IMG/VR virus record: IMGVR_UViG_3300037420_002488
Coordinates: 997 to 64,996 of that record
DNA from: a virus
Taxonomy: Duplodnaviria > Caudoviricetes
DNA: 64,000 nucleotides
Direction: 5' to 3' (one strand)
Shown piece by piece: positions 23,619-30,387 of this stretch. The notes beneath the pieces were generated by a model. It was not told the origin of the DNA. It worked only from the letters and a program-made list of their open reading frames with translations, and did no database searches. The translations under genes were made by a program, and so were the position numbers. The first letter of the stretch is position 1. Each line of letters begins with the position of its first letter.

Positions 23619-24073
23619 TCACCCGCGGTGACGACGGCAAGGTCGATGGGTTGTCCTGGGCAGACCAGCGCGCCTACCGCCGCTTCAAACGCCGCCTCGA
23701 CGGCATGGTGCCCGGCGACACACTCGAATTCAGTTGGAAGGCAGCCAGATCGGCAGGGTTTCACCGTCGCCACTTCCTCATGCTGCGCTGGGTCTTCGAC
23801 AACCAGGAGACGTTCGTCGGCGAGTACGAGCTGCGCAAGTGGGGCGAGATCGGCGCCGGGCACTGCGCGTGGATACCTGGTGCCGACGGCGAGCCCCAGG
23901 CGATCCCCAAGAGCATCGACTACATGAGCCTGGATGACGACGAGTTCAGGGAGCTTCACCTTGCCGTGAAGGACTTCATGCGCTCGCCGCGCGGCCTGGC
24001 CACGTTGTGGCCGCATGCCGATCCGATCCAGGCCTGGCACGCCATCGACCAAATCATGGAAGGCATCGGATGA
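23603..24073 (+). CDS. DUF1367/NinB-like protein
   Basis: ARSAGFHRRHF, IGAGH, IPKSIDYMSLDDDEF; AGGAG RBS. Confidence 0.7.
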   Translation: MPTIVITRGDDGKVDGLSWADQRAYRRFKRRLDGMVPGDTLEFSWKAARSAGFHRRHFLMLRWVFDNQETFVGEYELRKWGEIGAGHCAWIPGADGEPQAIPKSIDYMSLDDDEFRELHLAVKDFMRSPRGLATLWPHADPIQAWHAIDQIMEGIG

Positions 24074-24273
24074 AGTGCGTTCGTTGCGGCAAGCCACTGA
24101 CAAAGGCCACTGTCACCGTCTCCACAAGGACAGGCCCGGCCGCATGGGGCTCGGTGTGCGCCCAGAAGGATGGCTTCACGGTGCCGCGCGCCACCACGCG
24201 GGCGTGCAAGGTCGTGTCCGCCAAGCCGAAGCCCGAGCCCGACACCTCCCAGATGGAGCTGGAATTCGCATGA
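24070..24273 (+). CDS. 67-aa CxxC protein
   Basis: MKCVRCGKPL; ATGA couplings. Confidence 0.6.
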   Translation: MKCVRCGKPLTKATVTVSTRTGPAAWGSVCAQKDGFTVPRATTRACKVVSAKPKPEPDTSQMELEFA

Positions 24274-25094
24274 CCGCATTGCAACTCGCCACGCTGGCCG
24301 TTGCCCGCAAGACCAGGCAACGCAAGGACGAAGAGAGCCAGCACCAGCAAGCGCTGGTGATGTGGGCCAGCATGGCGCGCTTCCCTGTGCCCGTGCACGG
24401 CGTGCTGCCAAGCGAGACCATCGGGGATTACCTCTTCGCCATCCCCAACGGCGGCGCGCGAAGCAAGGCCGTGGCAGGCAGGATGAAGGCCGAAGGGCTC
24501 AAGGCCGGCGTGCTGGACCTGAAGTTCGAACTGCCGATCGGCCGCTGCCCGGGCCTGTGGATCGAGATGAAGGCGGGCAAGAACACCTTGACGCCTGAAC
24601 AACGCACCTGGCGTGAGCGCATGGCCCGCCTGGGCTTCAAGGTCGTGGTCTGCTGGGATTGGGAGGTCGCCCGCGACCACATCCTGGAATACCTCGGCGC
24701 AGCGCCGACCAGGTCGAGCACGCTGGCCGCACTGGACGAGATCGAGGCGGGCGAGGTGGCCGTGCCCAAGCGCAAGCCCATCCGCTCGCCCAAGTACCTA
24801 GCCATGGTGGCCAAGCTGGCGTGCTGCAACTGCAGCATCGTGGGCTACAGCCAGGCCGCGCATCCCAACACCGGCAAGGGCATGGCAACGAAGGCCGACG
24901 ACAACCTTGCCTTTCCCCTGTGTGCACCACGACCAGGTGAGCCGGGATGCCATGCCCGCTTTGACCAGGGCGCCATGTACACCAAGGCTCAGCGCCGCGA
25001 ACTCGAGACCCGATGGGGCCGCATCACCTCGGCCGCCATCAAACGCACTGGCAAATGGCCGATGGGCCTTGCCTACCCAACCTTCAAGGAGTGA
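24270..25094 (+). CDS. VRR-NUC nuclease fused to a Ref/DUF968-like Zn domain
   Basis: AIPNGG, GLKAGVLDL, WIEMKAG..TPEQ..W, then CCNC...AAH..K..D..FPLC...CH..FD. Confidence 0.78.
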   Translation: MTALQLATLAVARKTRQRKDEESQHQQALVMWASMARFPVPVHGVLPSETIGDYLFAIPNGGARSKAVAGRMKAEGLKAGVLDLKFELPIGRCPGLWIEMKAGKNTLTPEQRTWRERMARLGFKVVVCWDWEVARDHILEYLGAAPTRSSTLAALDEIEAGEVAVPKRKPIRSPKYLAMVAKLACCNCSIVGYSQAAHPNTGKGMATKADDNLAFPLCAPRPGEPGCHARFDQGAMYTKAQRRELETRWGRITSAAIKRTGKWPMGLAYPTFKE

Positions 25095-25690: not shown

Positions 25691-25920
25691 GTGCACGACT
25701 CGATGCTGCAAAGAGCAGCGCCATGGGCTTATATGACCTCCTTTTGGGCCTTCATCCGCCCGGGCACATCCCGACTGCCCCGGATTCTTTGACCCTGCAG
25801 GTCGCCGCGTTGCGCGAGGAAATCCAGGCATTGCGCCGCGACCTCGCGCCCCAGTCTTCCACCATCCTGACCGGCCGTGAAGCCATGGCCGAATTCCAAC
25901 GCCTGAAAGGCACCCCATGA
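25687..25920 (+). CDS. Hypothetical protein
   Basis: ATGA couplings. Confidence 0.6.
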   Translation: MSARLDAAKSSAMGLYDLLLGLHPPGHIPTAPDSLTLQVAALREEIQALRRDLAPQSSTILTGREAMAEFQRLKGTP

Positions 25921-26357
25921 CCACACTCACGATCTACATTGGCACCAAGATCATCCAGGCCATGCCCCAGCAGCACGCTGACGGCCGCGACGGCTACCAA
26001 GTCGTCTATGAGGACGGCTACACCAGTTGGAGCCCGGCCGATGTCTTCGAGCGGGCCTACCGCAAGACCGACGCCATGACCTTCGGCGATGCCCTGATCA
26101 TGCTGAAGGCGGGCCAGCGCGTGGCCCGTGCGGGCTGGAACGGTAAGGGTATGTGGCTTGCCCTGAGCTGCGGCGAGACCAAGGACGTGCCCGCCGATCG
26201 CTTCTGGTCCGAGCACAACCGCGCCCACGCCGAGGCCTGCGGTGGCACGGCCAAGGTGCTGCCCTCGATCACCATGAAGACGGCCGACGGCGAGATCCTC
26301 ATGGGCTGGCTTGCAAGCCAAACCGACATGCTCGCCGAAGACTGGCGGGTGGCCTGA
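25917..26357 (+). CDS. DUF2829-domain protein
   Basis: YEDGYTSWSP..VFERAY; MTFGDAL..LKAGQRVARAGWNGKGMW; GWLASQTDMLAEDW. Confidence 0.85.
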   Translation: MTTLTIYIGTKIIQAMPQQHADGRDGYQVVYEDGYTSWSPADVFERAYRKTDAMTFGDALIMLKAGQRVARAGWNGKGMWLALSCGETKDVPADRFWSEHNRAHAEACGGTAKVLPSITMKTADGEILMGWLASQTDMLAEDWRVA

Positions 26358-26605
26358 TGACGGCGGCCCTCGATAGCCTGGGCCGTGCTGTCGGCCTGTC
26401 GACGGAGGCCATGCTCGAGATCGCGGCCCAGGTGAAGGGCAACAGCGAAAGGCTCAATGCCTGCGCGCGCCACGACTTCGAGCCCGTGCCCGGCAAGCTG
26501 AAGTTTGGCAACCCATCTCGGTACCGATGCAAGCATTGCCAAGGGGAGGTCGACAACCATGCGTGGTACTGGCACGAAAAGGGGCGGGCTACCGCAGCGT
26601 CATAG
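26357..26605 (+). CDS. 82-aa Cys/His protein
   Basis: CARHDF, CKHC; TGATG coupling. Confidence 0.65.
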   Translation: MTAALDSLGRAVGLSTEAMLEIAAQVKGNSERLNACARHDFEPVPGKLKFGNPSRYRCKHCQGEVDNHAWYWHEKGRATAAS

Positions 26606-27337
26606 GTTGCCTAGAGAATGAAAGCCAGTCAACAGATATTCGGTAGGCGTGGGCGCGCCGAAATCTGCCGCCTCGGCAAGAACCGGCAATGCAATTTCAA
26701 GGTGGCTATTTATCCAACCCATACGGTCATCCCAATACTTCAGTAGGTGATCTCGATGCCGAATGTCAGTCTCGTTGTGCCACACGCTGTCATGCGACGT
26801 GTCTCGCGCCAAGGCCTTTGCGACCTTGGATGCAGCATGCAATCGGCCTGCTGTGTTGCTGGGTAAGGGCATCAGAGCCATTAATGCTTCGTCGGCGATC
26901 CCAAACGCGGGGTGCGAAGCAATACTCCTAATTTGGTCGCGCGCCGTGTTTTGTGCGCTTTGCAGATACGCAAGGTATTCCCGTTGATCGGCTAAGTCGA
27001 ATCGGTACTCCATCCGCAAGGGCACGTCGTTCAGGTAGTGCCGAAGATATTCATTGCATTCGGTGAGATCGGCAACCAATCCGGCGGCCATCAGGTGTGC
27101 GCGTTGCAGTTGGAGGGCTTCCCCGTCAGCCCGCTGCTTGCCAGCGATCTGGAGGGCGATATAGGCGGCGTAGAAGGTGGCCAGGCCTGACAAGGCGCTC
27201 ACGATGATGGCCAGGGCCTCTTTGAATGGCAGGTCGATGTCGCTGATCAGGATCGCCGTGCATGTGGCGCCCAACGCCCCCACGCACGCGGCTGACCCGT
27301 AAAACACCCACTTCTCCCAAGCCTTCATACCGTCCAT
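26600..27337 (-). CDS. Two-TM membrane protein with soluble C-domain (moron)
   Basis: GAGGAG RBS; two N-terminal hydrophobic helices; lower GC in the C-terminal half. Confidence 0.7.
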   Translation of the reverse strand: MDGMKAWEKWVFYGSAACVGALGATCTAILISDIDLPFKEALAIIVSALSGLATFYAAYIALQIAGKQRADGEALQLQRAHLMAAGLVADLTECNEYLRHYLNDVPLRMEYRFDLADQREYLAYLQSAQNTARDQIRSIASHPAFGIADEALMALMPLPSNTAGRLHAASKVAKALARDTSHDSVWHNETDIRHRDHLLKYWDDRMGWINSHLEIALPVLAEAADFGAPTPTEYLLTGFHSLGNL

Positions 27338-27376: not shown

Positions 27377-27409
27377 TTGCGTCTCTTTTGAATAGTATGT
27401 ATTATTCAA
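27377..27409 (+). promoter_or_regulatory. Strong sigma70 promoter with overlapping inverted-repeat operator
   Basis: TTGCGT, 17 bp, TATTAT; TTGAATA-N8-TATTCAA (27388-27409) covers the spacer and -10. Confidence 0.75.
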
Positions 27410-27451
27410 TCATTCGGGCAGCACAAGGCCCCCACCCAACTGGAGAGCGCA

Positions 27452-27751
27452 ATGCAAACTGAGATCAAAGCCATGGCCGAACAGTTCGGCGTCGAAGCCA
27501 GCGCACTGACGTGCCTGGTCATCTTCCTGCAGGACAACTTGAGCAAGCCCGGCGCGGCTGAAGCCTTCGCCCAGGCAACGCCTGCCGAGCAGGACGAGAT
27601 CATCAAGAAGGGCGTGAAGGCCTGGCGCGACCACAGCGTGCGCATCTTCACCGACCTGATCGCCAACACCACCGAGTGGGCCCAGGAAGCCCGCAAGCAG
27701 ATCGCTGACGACGTGTGGCACCACGCCCGTATGCAAGGAGCCCAGGCATGA
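27452..27751 (+). CDS. Small protein 1 of the accessory cassette
   Basis: GGAG RBS; 99 aa; no motif recognised. Confidence 0.75.
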   Translation: MQTEIKAMAEQFGVEASALTCLVIFLQDNLSKPGAAEAFAQATPAEQDEIIKKGVKAWRDHSVRIFTDLIANTTEWAQEARKQIADDVWHHARMQGAQA

Positions 27752-28098
27752 ACATCACACAGGCAAAGATTGAGGGAGTGAAGGCCTTCAGGGCAGGCCA
27801 AGGGCGTGCGCCTGCGCTCAACGGCGCCTTTATGAACGCAATGCACAATGACACCGTGGAGGGCATCAATGCGATGCTGGACGCCTACCTGCACGGCTTC
27901 GACATCGCCAGCCTTGCCAAGGACGCCCCACTGCCCAACATGCCCAGCGTGCTGGAGCTGGCCCGCATCGAACGTGCGGCCATGCTGGATGCCCTGAATG
28001 CCGCCCTCGACCAGGTGGACGCTGAGCGCGCCGAAGGCATCGAGGAACCTGAATGGGCCGCCCTGGCGCGTGACGCCGTGGCCCTGACCGCCGAGTGA
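27748..28098 (+). CDS. Small acidic protein 2 of the cassette
   Basis: AGGAG RBS, ATGA overlap; 116 aa. Confidence 0.75.
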   Translation: MNITQAKIEGVKAFRAGQGRAPALNGAFMNAMHNDTVEGINAMLDAYLHGFDIASLAKDAPLPNMPSVLELARIERAAMLDALNAALDQVDAERAEGIEEPEWAALARDAVALTAE

Positions 28099-28343
28099 TC
28101 GGCATGGCAACCTACTTTGAGGCCGCCCGCGCGGCCGAATTGCTTTTCGGCGTGATGATCACCCACTGCAGTAACCGCCGCAGCGGTGATGGCCCGTTCT
28201 CGGTCTGGGCGTTTGTTCGCGGTACGAACCACGGCAAGGCAGCCGATGCCCTGGTGATCGCCAGCGATTGCCCGGCGATAATCGAATCTGATCCCACGAT
28301 CGACGGTTCGATCGTTCGATACACCCGCAACCCCGGCAATTGA
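28095..28343 (+). CDS. Small protein 3 of the cassette
   Basis: GTGA overlap; 82 aa (or ATG at 28104). Confidence 0.6.
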   Translation: MIGMATYFEAARAAELLFGVMITHCSNRRSGDGPFSVWAFVRGTNHGKAADALVIASDCPAIIESDPTIDGSIVRYTRNPGN

Positions 28344-28346
28344 TCC

Positions 28347-28625
28347 ATGACGCCAGCGAAGAAGACAAGCACCAGAGGCGGCGCCCGCAAGGGCACCGGC
28401 CCCAAGCCAGCCGATGGCGCCACCGATCTTTCGAAGGTCACGATCACGATTGACCCGATCAGCGATTCGATCGCCAAAGACATCGGTGAAGGCGATCGAT
28501 CCCTGGGAATTCGTAGGGCACTGGCGATCGCCAAAGAGGTTCGCAGTTCACAGGTGCGCACACCAGTTCGCAAAAGTGCGCAGGTGCGAACTCGCGCACC
28601 GCGTAGACCCAATGGCGACACTTAA
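28347..28625 (+). CDS. Ribbon-helix-helix-like DNA-binding protein
   Basis: Basic arm RGGARKGTGPKP, strand KVTITID, helices SDSIAKDIG and DRSLGIRRAL. Confidence 0.7.
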   Translation: MTPAKKTSTRGGARKGTGPKPADGATDLSKVTITIDPISDSIAKDIGEGDRSLGIRRALAIAKEVRSSQVRTPVRKSAQVRTRAPRRPNGDT

Positions 28626-28719
28626 ATCAGTATTTGTTTTCAACGCTTGCCTAATGATCAGGGGTTGGTGAAACGTTGAAGCAGATGGCATTGAATTAGG
28701 CACTACAAGGAGGTATTCT

Positions 28720-30387
28720 GTGTTTCCCATATCAGATATAGAGCTTCAATTCGGAGCAACCAAAGACGAGAAGTTGCGCATTCCAAACCCTGGCGTTACT
28801 CTTTTTGTTGGGCCGAATAATTCTGGCAAGAGTCTCGTGTTGCGTGAAATATGGAATGTACTTCGAAATGGCCACGGCGGTGGTCCAGGTCAAATACTGG
28901 CTAGCATGAAATGTGCAATCTCGAGTGCAGAGCGCGAAGATAGTATTATAAGAAGAATACTCGCAGATGCAAAGATTGCCGAAGATTTGAAAGAGGACGA
29001 AAAATTTACTATTCGGGGTACACATCCGCAAATTTTGCTTTCGAAGGCCGAGCTTCGTAAATTCGTAAGGAACCCATTTTCTCTTGGCGAGCGCACACCC
29101 ATGGTTGTGCCTTCGGTAATGCTTGATGGCGCAACGCGACTGCAACTAGTCGGGCAGCAGAGCCTTCCATCACTTTCCTCGCCATCCACTACATTTGGAC
29201 GCCTTGCTACAAATGATGTGGCGCGAAGCCGTTTGCGTGCGGTCCTATTCGAAGCATTTCAAAAGTACATTGTGGTCGACGCGGTTCAATCACCTGGCAT
29301 GGCGTTTCTGAAGTTCGCTCCGACTGTCCCGCCTCCTTCACTTGAAAGAAGCTTTTCAGACGAGGCTTTGGCCTTCTTTCAAAAATGTGTGGGTATAGAA
29401 TTATTCAGCGATGGCGTGCGCGCTTTCACGGGAATTCTGGCCGAATTATTTGCCGGTGATCCTTCAGTTTTAGTGATTGATGAGCCTGAAGCGTTCTTGC
29501 ATCCATCACTCGCGTACCTGCTTGGACGGGAAATCGCTAGGCCAGCGCAATCGGGCTTTCAAAAGAATGTCTTCATTGCAACGCATAGTCCGAGTTTTGT
29601 AATGGGGTGCGTTCAGTCGTCGGCTTCAGTGAACGTAGTTCGGCTCACCTATGCAAACGGACAACCAACTGCGAGAGTGTTGAAAGCATCTGACCTGTCA
29701 TCGCTAATGCGGAACCCTTTACTGCGTTCCGTTGGTGCTATTGAGGCACTTTTCCATGATTTTGTTGTCGTCACGGAGGCGGATGCCGATCGCGCTTTCT
29801 ACGATGAAATCAACCATCGGCTGTTGCTCACCAACGATGAAAGAGGTATTCAGAACTGTCTCTTTCTACGTGCGCAGAACAAGCAAACCGTGGCGGATAT
29901 TGTTAAGCCTTTGCGTGCGCTTGGCATTCCGGCGGCAGGAATAGTTGATGTTGATATATATGAAGAGGGTGGGAAAGTTTGGTCTACCTTCGTTGACGCC
30001 GCAGGTATGGACGCTACAACAGCGGCGGGTAGTGCAATAGTTCGATCTAAGGTGAAAGATCACTTCGTGGCGTCGGGGGCGGTCAAGCCAAAACAGCGTG
30101 GGGGCGTCAACGTTCTAAGCGGTGCCCCTAAAAAGGCTGCAGACGGTTTATTTGACCAGCTTGATGACTATGGGATGTTCACAGTTCGGGGGGGCGAGGT
30201 AGAGCACTGGCTACCCGGCACAGTAAAGAGTTCGGCACATGGCCCAGATTGGCTCATAGAGGCGTTCAAGTCCATGGGTGAGGATCCATCTGATCCAGGT
30301 TACTTAAAGCCTACAGATGGTGACGTGTGGGACTTCATTGCAAAGATTGGTCGGTGGCTACGCAATACATCGCGAAAGGGAATGTGA
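28720..30387 (+). CDS. ABC-ATPase plus TOPRIM protein (OLD-like), candidate defence nuclease
   Basis: GPNNSGKS, FSDGVR, LVIDEPE, IATHSP; TOPRIM VVVTEAD...GIVDVD; AAGGAGG plus GTG; visibly lower GC than the phage core. Confidence 0.85.
   Translation: MFPISDIELQFGATKDEKLRIPNPGVTLFVGPNNSGKSLVLREIWNVLRNGHGGGPGQILASMKCAISSAEREDSIIRRILADAKIAEDLKEDEKFTIRGTHPQILLSKAELRKFVRNPFSLGERTPMVVPSVMLDGATRLQLVGQQSLPSLSSPSTTFGRLATNDVARSRLRAVLFEAFQKYIVVDAVQSPGMAFLKFAPTVPPPSLERSFSDEALAFFQKCVGIELFSDGVRAFTGILAELFAGDPSVLVIDEPEAFLHPSLAYLLGREIARPAQSGFQKNVFIATHSPSFVMGCVQSSASVNVVRLTYANGQPTARVLKASDLSSLMRNPLLRSVGAIEALFHDFVVVTEADADRAFYDEINHRLLLTNDERGIQNCLFLRAQNKQTVADIVKPLRALGIPAAGIVDVDIYEEGGKVWSTFVDAAGMDATTAAGSAIVRSKVKDHFVASGAVKPKQRGGVNVLSGAPKKAADGLFDQLDDYGMFTVRGGEVEHWLPGTVKSSAHGPDWLIEAFKSMGEDPSDPGYLKPTDGDVWDFIAKIGRWLRNTSRKGM

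What the first reader, a model, noticed from the sequence alone, without database searches (positions are those of the whole stretch)
27377..28625. acr/aca-like cassette: strong promoter with operator, three unknown small ORFs and a terminal RHH regulator
Seen: near-consensus promoter overlapped by a 22-bp inverted repeat, three coupled 80-116 aa ORFs, then a small DNA-binding protein. Known: anti-CRISPR and other anti-defence operons are transcribed strongly on entry, then shut off by a last-gene Aca binding promoter IRs. Inference: a self-limiting anti-defence operon using an RHH instead of an HTH repressor; the ORFs are candidate new inhibitors. It sits directly upstream of the phage's own OLD-like nuclease, so one ORF could be its antidote.
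Basis: partly seen in the sequence, partly recalled or inferred. Interest (0 to 1): 0.7.

Follow-up and report, generated by a model that had tools for sequence, protein, structure and literature searches.

The report
RHH-controlled swappable small-gene cassette in prophage
A prophage carries a four-gene unit in which a promoter with a built-in operator and a small ribbon-helix-helix repressor frame three orphan genes; the same promoter and repressor recur in unrelated phages around about 20 different unknown small genes, the layout of anti-defence (acr-aca) loci, though no function has been shown.

Summary
Four tightly coupled plus-strand genes (99, 116, 79 and 92 aa) follow a 22-bp inverted repeat that covers the -10 box. 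The promoter itself matches only 8 of 12 consensus positions, so it is not near-consensus.

The last gene is very probably a ribbon-helix-helix (RHH) protein. It belongs to a small family that no library describes.

The main new result is comparative. The window's promoter and operator are homologous to a conserved element lying upstream of genes of this RHH family in unrelated phages and mobile elements. A DNA-only scan of IMG/VR for the element gave 38 hits. Twelve have an RHH-family gene 60-1000 nt downstream on the same strand, including 11 of the 14 hits in contigs of at least 55% GC.

Between element and regulator lie 25 small ORFs in 20 unrelated families. This is the architecture of acr-aca loci. 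RHH-type regulators of such loci were published in 2026 (Aca14, AcrIE10), and this family shows no detectable homology to Aca14.

An anti-defence role for the cargo is only circumstantial: a Tad2-like gene lies 1.1 kb upstream, and one relative sits in a Dar-like locus. A toxin-antitoxin reading is disfavoured. Nothing supports the idea of an antidote to the OLD nuclease.

The scan had not noted this element on other DNA.

The parts
27377..27405 (+). Sigma-70-type promoter: -35 TTGCGT (27377-27382), 17-nt spacer, -10 TATTAT (27400-27405). The probable transcription start is near A27412.
   Evidence: Read from the sequence. It scores 8/12 and was not called by the scan. It aligns column for column with the conserved promoter of 16 other loci; the TTG of the -35 box and GT.TGTAT..TTCA are invariant.
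27388..27409 (.). 22-bp inverted repeat (TTGAATAGTA TG TATTATTCAA) covering the spacer and the -10 box. It is the putative operator of the RHH protein.
   Evidence: Unique in the window. Pairs at 9 of 11 positions, p about 0.007 by shuffling. Homologous elements lie upstream of RHH-family genes elsewhere.
27412..27451 (+). Short 5' leader with a weak GGGC/GCCC hairpin (27416-27431) and a GGAG ribosome-binding site 7 nt before the ATG.
   Evidence: The fold is not more stable than shuffles (z +0.4). Most other loci have a hairpin of different sequence at the same place.
27452..27751 (+). ORF1, 99 aa, helical, orphan cargo gene.
   Evidence: GC3 0.84. Matches phrog_26169 at E 3e-6, function unknown. 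No relatives in INPHARED or IMG/VR. The protein atlas gave nothing usable.
27748..28098 (+). ORF2, 116 aa, cargo gene. It looks like two small phage-protein modules joined.
   Evidence: phrog_19203 matches residues 1-61 (E 1.4e-13) and phrog_21166 matches residues 79-115 (E 9e-9). Only two homologs among 5.8 billion proteins. The start overlaps the ORF1 stop by ATGA.
28104..28343 (+). ORF3, 79 aa, with a predicted alpha-beta-beta-alpha-beta-beta two-layer sandwich. It is either cargo or a partner of the short-form RHH.
   Evidence: The only true homologs are proteins of 80-84 aa. AF2 gave pLDDT 83.9 and pTM 0.74. The best structural matches are generic, Z up to 7.0. Two homologs lie on contigs whose lengths (3497 and 57608) equal those of contigs bearing RHH homologs.
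28347..28625 (+). ORF4, 92 aa. It has an Arg/Gly-rich N-terminal arm (RGGARKGTGPKPADG), an RHH core (residues about 29-67) and a basic C-terminal tail. It is the putative autorepressor.
   Evidence: The family has 18 proteins. AF2 predicts an extended segment followed by helices 37-46 and 51-67, with core pLDDT 85-88. The only PDB sequence hit is the RHH domain of NikR, in register, at E 1.2. RHH proteins appear among weak fold matches, for example ArtA 3gxq_B at rmsd 1.3 A over 34 residues, Z 2.2.

Best explanation
Region 27377-28625 is a self-contained, portable transcription unit. A host-type promoter with an operator across its -10 box drives three exchangeable accessory genes (ORF1-3). 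The unit ends in a small ribbon-helix-helix protein that most likely binds that operator as a dimer or dimer of dimers and shuts its own operon down.

Shown here: the promoter/operator and the RHH gene travel together through otherwise unrelated phages and mobile elements, while the genes between them are swapped freely.

Inferred: RHH binding and autorepression, and the role of the cargo. The cargo most likely consists of early counter-defence or host-takeover proteins, by analogy with acr-aca loci and from the neighbouring genes.
For: Conservation of the element:
- The window's -35, spacer, -10 and start region align with 16 other loci, with invariant TTG...TG....GT.TGTAT..TTCA.
- Of 12 distinct loci found through the RHH protein, 9 carry the element upstream of the RHH gene or its operon.
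- Conversely, a scan of IMG/VR with the DNA element alone gave 38 hits. Twelve have an RHH-family gene 60-1000 nt downstream on the same strand, including 11 of 14 hits in contigs of at least 55% GC. Two more (L030, L045) are recognisable modules cut short. The AT-rich hits are chance matches.

Variable cargo:
- The 25 ORFs lying between element and RHH fall into 20 families unrelated by BLASTP.
- No other window protein between 14 and 40 kb matches those loci.

Several promoters under one regulator:
- L006 has five copies of the element in both orientations, in front of five genes, one of them the RHH gene. Aca14 was shown to control more than one operon in the same way.

Position of the repeat:
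- It covers the -10 box, as reported for Aca14 and AcrIE10.

Anti-defence neighbours:
- Tad2-like gene (PF11195, E 1e-23) 1.1 kb upstream in the window.
- L007's module lies between a DarA_N/ddrB-ParB/InPase protein and an N6-methylase/SNF2 giant protein.
- Orphan DNA methylases, PAPS reductases and a pentapeptide-repeat protein occur near other modules.
Against: - No cargo protein matches a known anti-defence family or any other described family.
- The RHH fold rests on a sequence pattern, an AF2 monomer and weak matches: NikR at E 1.2, fold Z no higher than 2.8.
- The left arm of the palindrome is poorly conserved in other loci. What is strongly conserved could be mostly the promoter itself.
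- L010 and L017 have the RHH gene without the element.
- The window's promoter is only 8/12 and lacks the A-rich upstream tract of its relatives.
- The immediate neighbours in the window are defence-like or unknown genes (OLD, a membrane protein). The unit could therefore serve the lysogen rather than the infecting phage.
Confidence: 0.55

Rival explanations
1. The regulatory frame is the same, but the cargo are lysogenic-conversion genes (morons): superinfection exclusion, defence or host-physiology genes. Negative autoregulation by the RHH holds them at a steady low level in the prophage, so they are not counter-defence genes of the infecting phage.
For: The element lies in a provirus, between two low-GC insertions that look like lysogen-benefit genes: OLD (PADLOC Old, E 5.9e-22) and a 245-aa membrane protein. 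No promoter or terminator separates ORF4 from OLD, so OLD may be read through from this promoter. Autoregulated sigma-70 promoters suit expression in the prophage state.
Against: Hypervariable orphan genes of 59-121 aa under a repressible promoter are the signature of acr-type loci. Anti-restriction-type neighbours (DarA_N, methylases, Tad2-like) recur. No cargo matches a PADLOC defence model.
Confidence: 0.25
2. The cassette is the regulatory front end of the OLD-like nuclease gene. The RHH, perhaps together with ORF3, sets OLD expression, and one ORF moderates OLD.
For: OLD starts 94 nt after ORF4, with no recognisable promoter or terminator between them.
Against: The OLD gene is a discrete block of 45-50% GC in a 63% GC phage. 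No OLD-type ATPase/TOPRIM family is among the 25 listed (of 50 matched) Pfam families of the neighbours in 18 other loci. In most loci the RHH gene is followed by convergent genes. ORF1-3 have no PADLOC match.
Confidence: 0.08
3. It is a toxin-first type II toxin-antitoxin module of the HicAB or BrnTA type: the small upstream gene is the toxin and the RHH protein is the antitoxin and autorepressor.
For: RHH antitoxins autoregulate through palindromes at the -10 box. Most family members have an extra N-terminal domain ahead of a C-terminal RHH, like HicB. RHH antitoxins (Rv0298, MazE) appear among the weak fold matches.
Against: The RHH proteins of L011 and L013 differ at 1 of 138 residues yet follow unrelated upstream genes. 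Across loci, 20 unrelated families occupy the 'toxin' position. No cargo matches any toxin family. L006's RHH gene is monocistronic.
Confidence: 0.05

Closest known systems
Aca14, the ribbon-helix-helix anti-CRISPR-associated repressor of Pasteurella multocida (bioRxiv 10.64898/2026.07.27.740549)
   Same: Both are small RHH proteins encoded at the end of an operon of variable small genes. Both have an inverted repeat over the -10 box. In relatives, the same motif lies in front of more than one operon (L006 here).
   Different: There is no detectable sequence relationship (hhalign probability 0.4%). The operator differs: TTGAAT..GT(A/G)TGTAT(T/A)ATTCAA here, TGTATATG..CATATACA for Aca14. This family has an Arg/Gly-rich arm before the ribbon, and most members carry an extra N-terminal domain of about 80 aa. 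No known acr gene lies in any of its operons, and nothing has been tested at the bench.
AcrIE10, a bifunctional RHH-Acr protein of Klebsiella plasmids (PMC13530269)
   Same: An RHH domain recognises an inverted repeat over the promoter of its own locus. The regulator is fused to a second domain, as in most members of this family.
   Different: In AcrIE10 the RHH is N-terminal and the partner domain is a proven Cas7 binder. Here the RHH is C-terminal and the partner domain is uncharacterised. The window's protein is the short form, without that domain. AcrIE10 was not compared by sequence here.
Classical HTH-type acr-aca operons (Aca1 and Aca2 loci of Pseudomonas and Pectobacterium phages)
   Same: A conserved promoter with a repeat, hypervariable small genes and a conserved last-gene repressor. 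The cassette sits at different places in different phages.
   Different: The DNA-binding fold is RHH, not HTH. The cargo has unknown function.
RHH repressors and antitoxins (Arc, CopG, NikR N-terminal domain, ArtA, HicB C-terminal domain)
   Same: A strand-helix-helix core with a G-x-S turn before helix 2, and autorepression through palindromes at promoters.
   Different: No significant sequence or HMM match. There is no cognate toxin.

Membership tests
acr-aca-type (Aca-regulated anti-defence) operon | An inverted repeat overlaps the -35 or -10 box of the operon's own promoter. | tested here: met
   The repeat at 27388-27409 spans the spacer and the -10 box at 27400-27405.
acr-aca-type (Aca-regulated anti-defence) operon | The regulator gene and its promoter motif are conserved together across elements, while the genes between them vary. 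| tested here: met
   The element is present in 9 of 12 loci found through the protein. An RHH gene lies downstream of 12 of the 38 hits found through DNA alone, 11 of 14 at GC of at least 0.55. The cargo falls into 20 unrelated families.
acr-aca-type (Aca-regulated anti-defence) operon | At least one gene of the operon, or of homologous operons, is a known or demonstrated anti-defence gene. | tested here: inconclusive
   No cargo matched Pfam, PHROGs, NCBIfam or PADLOC. No dedicated anti-defence library (dbAPIS, AntiDefenseFinder) was on hand. Known anti-defence families occur only as neighbours: Tad2-like and DarA_N.
acr-aca-type (Aca-regulated anti-defence) operon | The regulator binds the repeat and represses the promoter. 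| not testable with these tools
   This needs a gel-shift and a reporter assay.
Aca14 family | Sequence homology to Aca14 of P. multocida. | tested here: not met
   hhalign of the 18-member profile against the Aca14 sequence from Table S2 of the preprint gave probability 0.4%, with only 11 columns aligned outside the RHH core.
Aca14 family | The cognate operator resembles TGTATATGTAAGCATATACA. | tested here: not met
   The window's operator is TTGAATAGTATGTATTATTCAA. Only a short TGTAT word is shared.
Ribbon-helix-helix (Arc/MetJ/CopG) superfamily | A strand-helix-helix core of about 40 residues, with a G-x-S/T/N turn capping helix 2. | tested here: met
   KVTITID is followed by helix 37-46, the turn GEGDRS and helix 51-67, with pLDDT 85-88. 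G47, S52, G54 and R56-R57-A58 are invariant in the family.
Ribbon-helix-helix (Arc/MetJ/CopG) superfamily | A significant match to a known RHH family by sequence or structure. | tested here: inconclusive
   No RHH family matched in Pfam or NCBIfam. The NikR RHH domain matched in register but at E 1.2. Foldseek found nothing. VIA-align gave Z no higher than 2.8, with ArtA, Rv0298, MazE-mt9 and MazE6 in the list. The dimer could not be modelled.
Type II toxin-antitoxin module, toxin first, with an RHH antitoxin | A cognate toxin co-varies with its antitoxin. | tested here: not met
   Nearly identical RHH proteins (137 of 138 residues, L011 and L013) have unrelated upstream genes. Twenty unrelated families occupy that position.
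OLD-family nuclease (the downstream neighbour, not part of the cassette) | An ABC-type ATPase followed by a TOPRIM domain. | tested here: met
   PADLOC Old at E 5.9e-22. Pfam AAA_21 at 4.6e-16 and AAA_15 at 2.8e-14. OLD-like_TOPRIM at 6.4e-4, just under its cut-off.

The most novel reading that the evidence does not exclude
This RHH family, with its Arg/Gly arm plus RHH core and often an extra N-terminal domain, is a second, independent RHH-type Aca-like regulator lineage. Its portable promoter/operator would mark a hot spot in phages of Burkholderiales-type hosts that holds at least 20 families of undescribed counter-defence proteins, ORF1-3 among them.

In the long forms, the N-terminal domain may also bind the nearly invariant 5' leader block that co-occurs with it. 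That would give dual DNA and RNA control, as in Aca2.
Probability: 0.3. Interest if true: 0.75.

Novelty: new member of a known kind. Interest (0 to 1): 0.55.

Why it matters
Regulators of anti-defence operons are the best available bait for finding new inhibitors of bacterial immunity, and so far almost all of them are HTH proteins. This family is absent from Pfam, PHROGs and NCBIfam, and it comes with a DNA motif that finds its loci without any protein search. It offers a ready set of about 20 unknown small-protein families to screen in a phage group (high-GC hosts of the Burkholderiales type) where few anti-defence genes are known. If the cargo proves to be something else, the module is still a clean example of a portable, self-limiting expression cassette that phages exchange.

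Tried and rejected
The contigs of the closest RHH relatives (P0002-P0011) and of the ORF2 and ORF3 homologs could not be read. ORF3/RHH co-occurrence therefore rests only on equal contig lengths.
- tblastn of ORF1-4 against INPHARED phages found nothing.
- The search for related loci with ORF1, ORF2, ORF3, ORF4 and the ORF3 alignment in IMG/VR found nothing close.
- Rfam gave no family for the leaders.
- Leader RNA folds are not more stable than shuffles; most z scores lie between -2.5 and +0.4. The hairpin is a note, not a claim.
- Foldseek on the RHH model found nothing.
- ORF3's fold is a common alpha/beta sandwich. The matches are designed proteins and EpsL/PilO domains at Z up to 7, with LAGLIDADG half-domains only weakly, so no function follows.
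- ORF3's matches to giant cadherin-like and repeat proteins were rejected as repeat or composition artefacts after Pfam and inspection.
- ORF3 is not the detached N-terminal domain of the long RHH forms (hhalign probability 0.05%).
- The protein atlas gave no usable lead for ORF1. For ORF2 it gave only sub-threshold leads: small phage proteins and an RMF-like cluster.
- The RHH family is rare in species-representative genomes: 2 loci in the GTDB scan and 2 of 401 genomes of the family of G001.
- No second copy of the operator exists in the window, so there is no sign of a wider regulon in this phage.

Full report
WHAT IS THERE

The window is a 64-kb stretch of an IMG/VR provirus record. It has a tRNA-Val and an integrase at the left, early and replication genes in the middle, and lysis, packaging and virion genes from about 30.4 kb.

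The finding lies in the accessory zone between these modules. In order, that zone holds:
- a Tad2-like gene (25917-26357, PF11195, E 1e-23);
- a small zinc-ribbon ORF;
- a divergent, lower-GC gene for a 245-aa membrane protein (26600-27337, minus strand);
- the four-gene cassette;
- a gene of 45-50% GC for an OLD-like ATPase-TOPRIM protein (28720-30387; PADLOC Old, E 5.9e-22);
- the lysis genes.

The cassette genes are ORF1 27452-27751 (99 aa), ORF2 27748-28098 (116 aa), ORF3 28104-28343 (79 aa) and ORF4 28347-28625 (92 aa). They overlap or lie 3-5 nt apart. Their third-position GC is high, and each has PHROG hits or homologs, so all four are real genes.

The upstream neighbour is on the other strand, so the cassette needs its own promoter. 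The best candidate is TTGCGT, 17 nt, TATTAT at 27377-27405.

The 22-bp repeat at 27388-27409 is real. It pairs at 9 of 11 positions, is unique in the window, and only 148 of 20000 shuffles of the intergenic region do as well. It covers the -10 box.

ORF4

No library names ORF4. It has only 17 relatives among 5.8 billion proteins.

The alignment shows three parts:
- an invariant Arg/Gly arm (GGAR.G.G.K..DG);
- a core reading strand (RVNITID), short helix, G-D-R-S turn, second helix (LGIRRALAIA);
- in the closest relatives, a basic tail.

AF2 predicts an extended segment followed by helices 37-46 and 51-67, with pLDDT 85-88. In a monomer the ribbon strand has no partner, so it is not scored as a strand.

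The only PDB sequence hit is the RHH domain of NikR. It is aligned in the correct register but is not significant (E 1.2). Foldseek found nothing. The exhaustive aligner gave only Z of 2.8 or less, but four RHH proteins are in its short list. ArtA has the tightest fit, at 1.3 A over 34 residues.

I take RHH as very probable but not proven.

THE COMPARATIVE RESULT

Loci fetched through the protein came from IMG/VR, GTDB genomes and metagenomes.

- In a Burkholderiaceae MAG (L006), a monocistronic homolog is preceded by a sequence close to the window's repeat.
- A position-weight scan found the same element upstream of the RHH gene or its operon in L006, L007, L008, L011-L014, L016 and L018. It found none elsewhere in those loci, apart from extra copies in L006.
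- Aligned, the element is a whole promoter: TTGCG, 17 nt, TATAAT or TATTAT, TCAA, CAT. The window's version fits column for column.

I then reversed the test and scanned IMG/VR with the DNA pattern alone.
- Of 38 hits, those in AT-rich contigs are chance matches.
- Eleven of the 14 hits in contigs of at least 55% GC, plus one at 49%, have an RHH-family gene 60-1000 nt downstream on the same strand (hmmsearch with the family profile).
- Two of the three exceptions (L030, L045) are recognisable modules cut short.

The family is otherwise rare, so this association cannot be chance.

THE CARGO

Between element and regulator lie one to three small ORFs of 59-121 aa. The 25 ORFs in 20 loci fall into 20 families with no BLASTP relationship.
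- L021 equals L022 plus one inserted gene.
- L049 shares one gene with L016 but adds two more.
- L011 and L013 have RHH proteins differing at one residue of 138, yet their cargo is unrelated.
- None of the window's ORF1-3 recurs in these loci.
- No other protein of the window phage between 14 and 40 kb matches them.

The promoter/operator plus RHH is therefore a portable frame, and the genes inside it are exchanged. In L006 five copies of the element, in both orientations, precede five different genes, the RHH gene among them. This is a small regulon.

HOW IT MOST LIKELY WORKS

Shown: a conserved promoter, a conserved partner regulator, and exchangeable cargo.

Inferred: the RHH dimer, or dimer of dimers, inserts its ribbon into the major groove at the repeat over the -10 box and blocks RNA polymerase. 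The operon would then fire when the DNA is free of repressor and limit itself afterwards. This is the logic shown experimentally for Aca14 (preprint) and AcrIE10 (PMC13530269).

WHAT THE CARGO DOES

This is open. Points in favour of counter-defence:
- the architecture;
- the Tad2-like gene 1.1 kb upstream;
- L007, where the module lies between a DarA_N/ddrB-ParB/InPase protein and a MucR-type regulator followed further on by a methylase-helicase giant;
- orphan methylases, PAPS reductases and a pentapeptide-repeat protein near other modules.

Points against, or neutral:
- no cargo matches any described family;
- the window's nearest neighbours look like lysogen-benefit genes;
- no promoter or terminator separates ORF4 from OLD.

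ORF3 folds with confidence into a common alpha-beta-beta-alpha-beta-beta sandwich that says nothing about function. Its few homologs seem to sit on the same contigs as short RHH homologs, judged only by equal contig lengths. It may therefore be a partner of the regulator rather than free cargo.

RIVALS

- Toxin-antitoxin reading: disfavoured by the L011/L013 comparison and the 20 unrelated 'toxins'.
- OLD-antidote reading: no support. OLD is a discrete low-GC insertion, and no OLD-type family is listed among the neighbours of the other loci.
- Moron reading (lysogen-expressed accessory genes): remains a serious rival.

COMPARISON WITH WHAT IS KNOWN

The kind is known. It covers acr-aca operons and, since mid-2026, RHH-type regulators of them.

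Membership in the Aca14 family was tested and not met (hhalign probability 0.4%; different operator). This is a separate RHH lineage with its own operator. It has an Arg/Gly arm and, in most members, an extra N-terminal domain. That domain co-occurs with a nearly invariant block in the 5' leader, a hint of RNA-level control that I did not test further.

VERDICT

The claimed novelty, RHH instead of HTH, has been overtaken by publications. The value lies in a new regulator family plus a DNA motif that points to about 20 families of unknown small phage proteins.

Noticed in passing
window 25917-26357 (+): The gene has a Tad2-like (Thoeris anti-defence 2) domain, PF11195, E 1e-23. It is a known anti-defence family lying 1.1 kb upstream of the cassette, in the preceding rightward operon.
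   Followed up: partly
L011:250-306, L012:255-311, L016:1633-1688 and equivalents in L013, L014, L018, L020-22, L029, L030, L042, L054: In loci whose RHH protein has the N-terminal domain of about 80 aa (MTHNxRGRLTV...), the 5' leader has a hairpin of varying sequence, followed by the almost invariant block CCGCGCCTCGGGAGATCAGGGGTAGGAG before the first ATG. Loci with the short RHH (window, L006, L034, L049) lack the block. It may be an RNA target of the N-domain. Fold energies are not significant, and no Rfam family matches.
   Followed up: partly
L007:501-12157: In a Hydrogenophaga MAG the module lies between a 1554-aa InPase + DarA_N + ddrB-ParB protein and a MucR-type regulator, followed further on by an N6-methylase/SNF2 giant protein. 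This is a Dar-like anti-restriction locus. Its RHH carries a different N-terminal domain.
   Followed up: partly
L006:4085-5950: Five copies of the promoter/operator element lie in both orientations in front of five genes. One of these genes is a homolog of the L021/L022 cargo family, and another is the monocistronic RHH gene, which is convergent with a lysis cassette.
   Followed up: partly
window 28626-28719: No promoter or terminator is recognisable between the ORF4 stop and the start of the low-GC OLD-like gene. OLD may be transcribed by read-through from the cassette promoter.
   Followed up: no
window 26600-27337 (-): A divergent gene of lower GC (about 55%) encodes a 245-aa protein with an N-terminal membrane segment and a good GAGGAG ribosome-binding site. 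It has no match in Pfam, PADLOC or NCBIfam. Its promoter must share the 114-bp intergenic region with the cassette promoter, and a weak TTCAAA-18-GACAAT candidate overlaps the left arm of the repeat.
   Followed up: no
window 28540-28600 (inside ORF4): The basic C-terminal tail of ORF4 repeats a QVRT motif. This shows at the DNA level as direct and inverted repeats, including AGTTCGCA..TGCGAACT. The tail is conserved in the closest relatives (VRTxVR...RT), and its role is unknown.
   Followed up: no
window 24015-25094 (+): One reading frame combines a VRR-NUC nuclease domain and a DUF968 (NinG-like) domain. It lies just before an HslV-like small protease gene.
   Followed up: no
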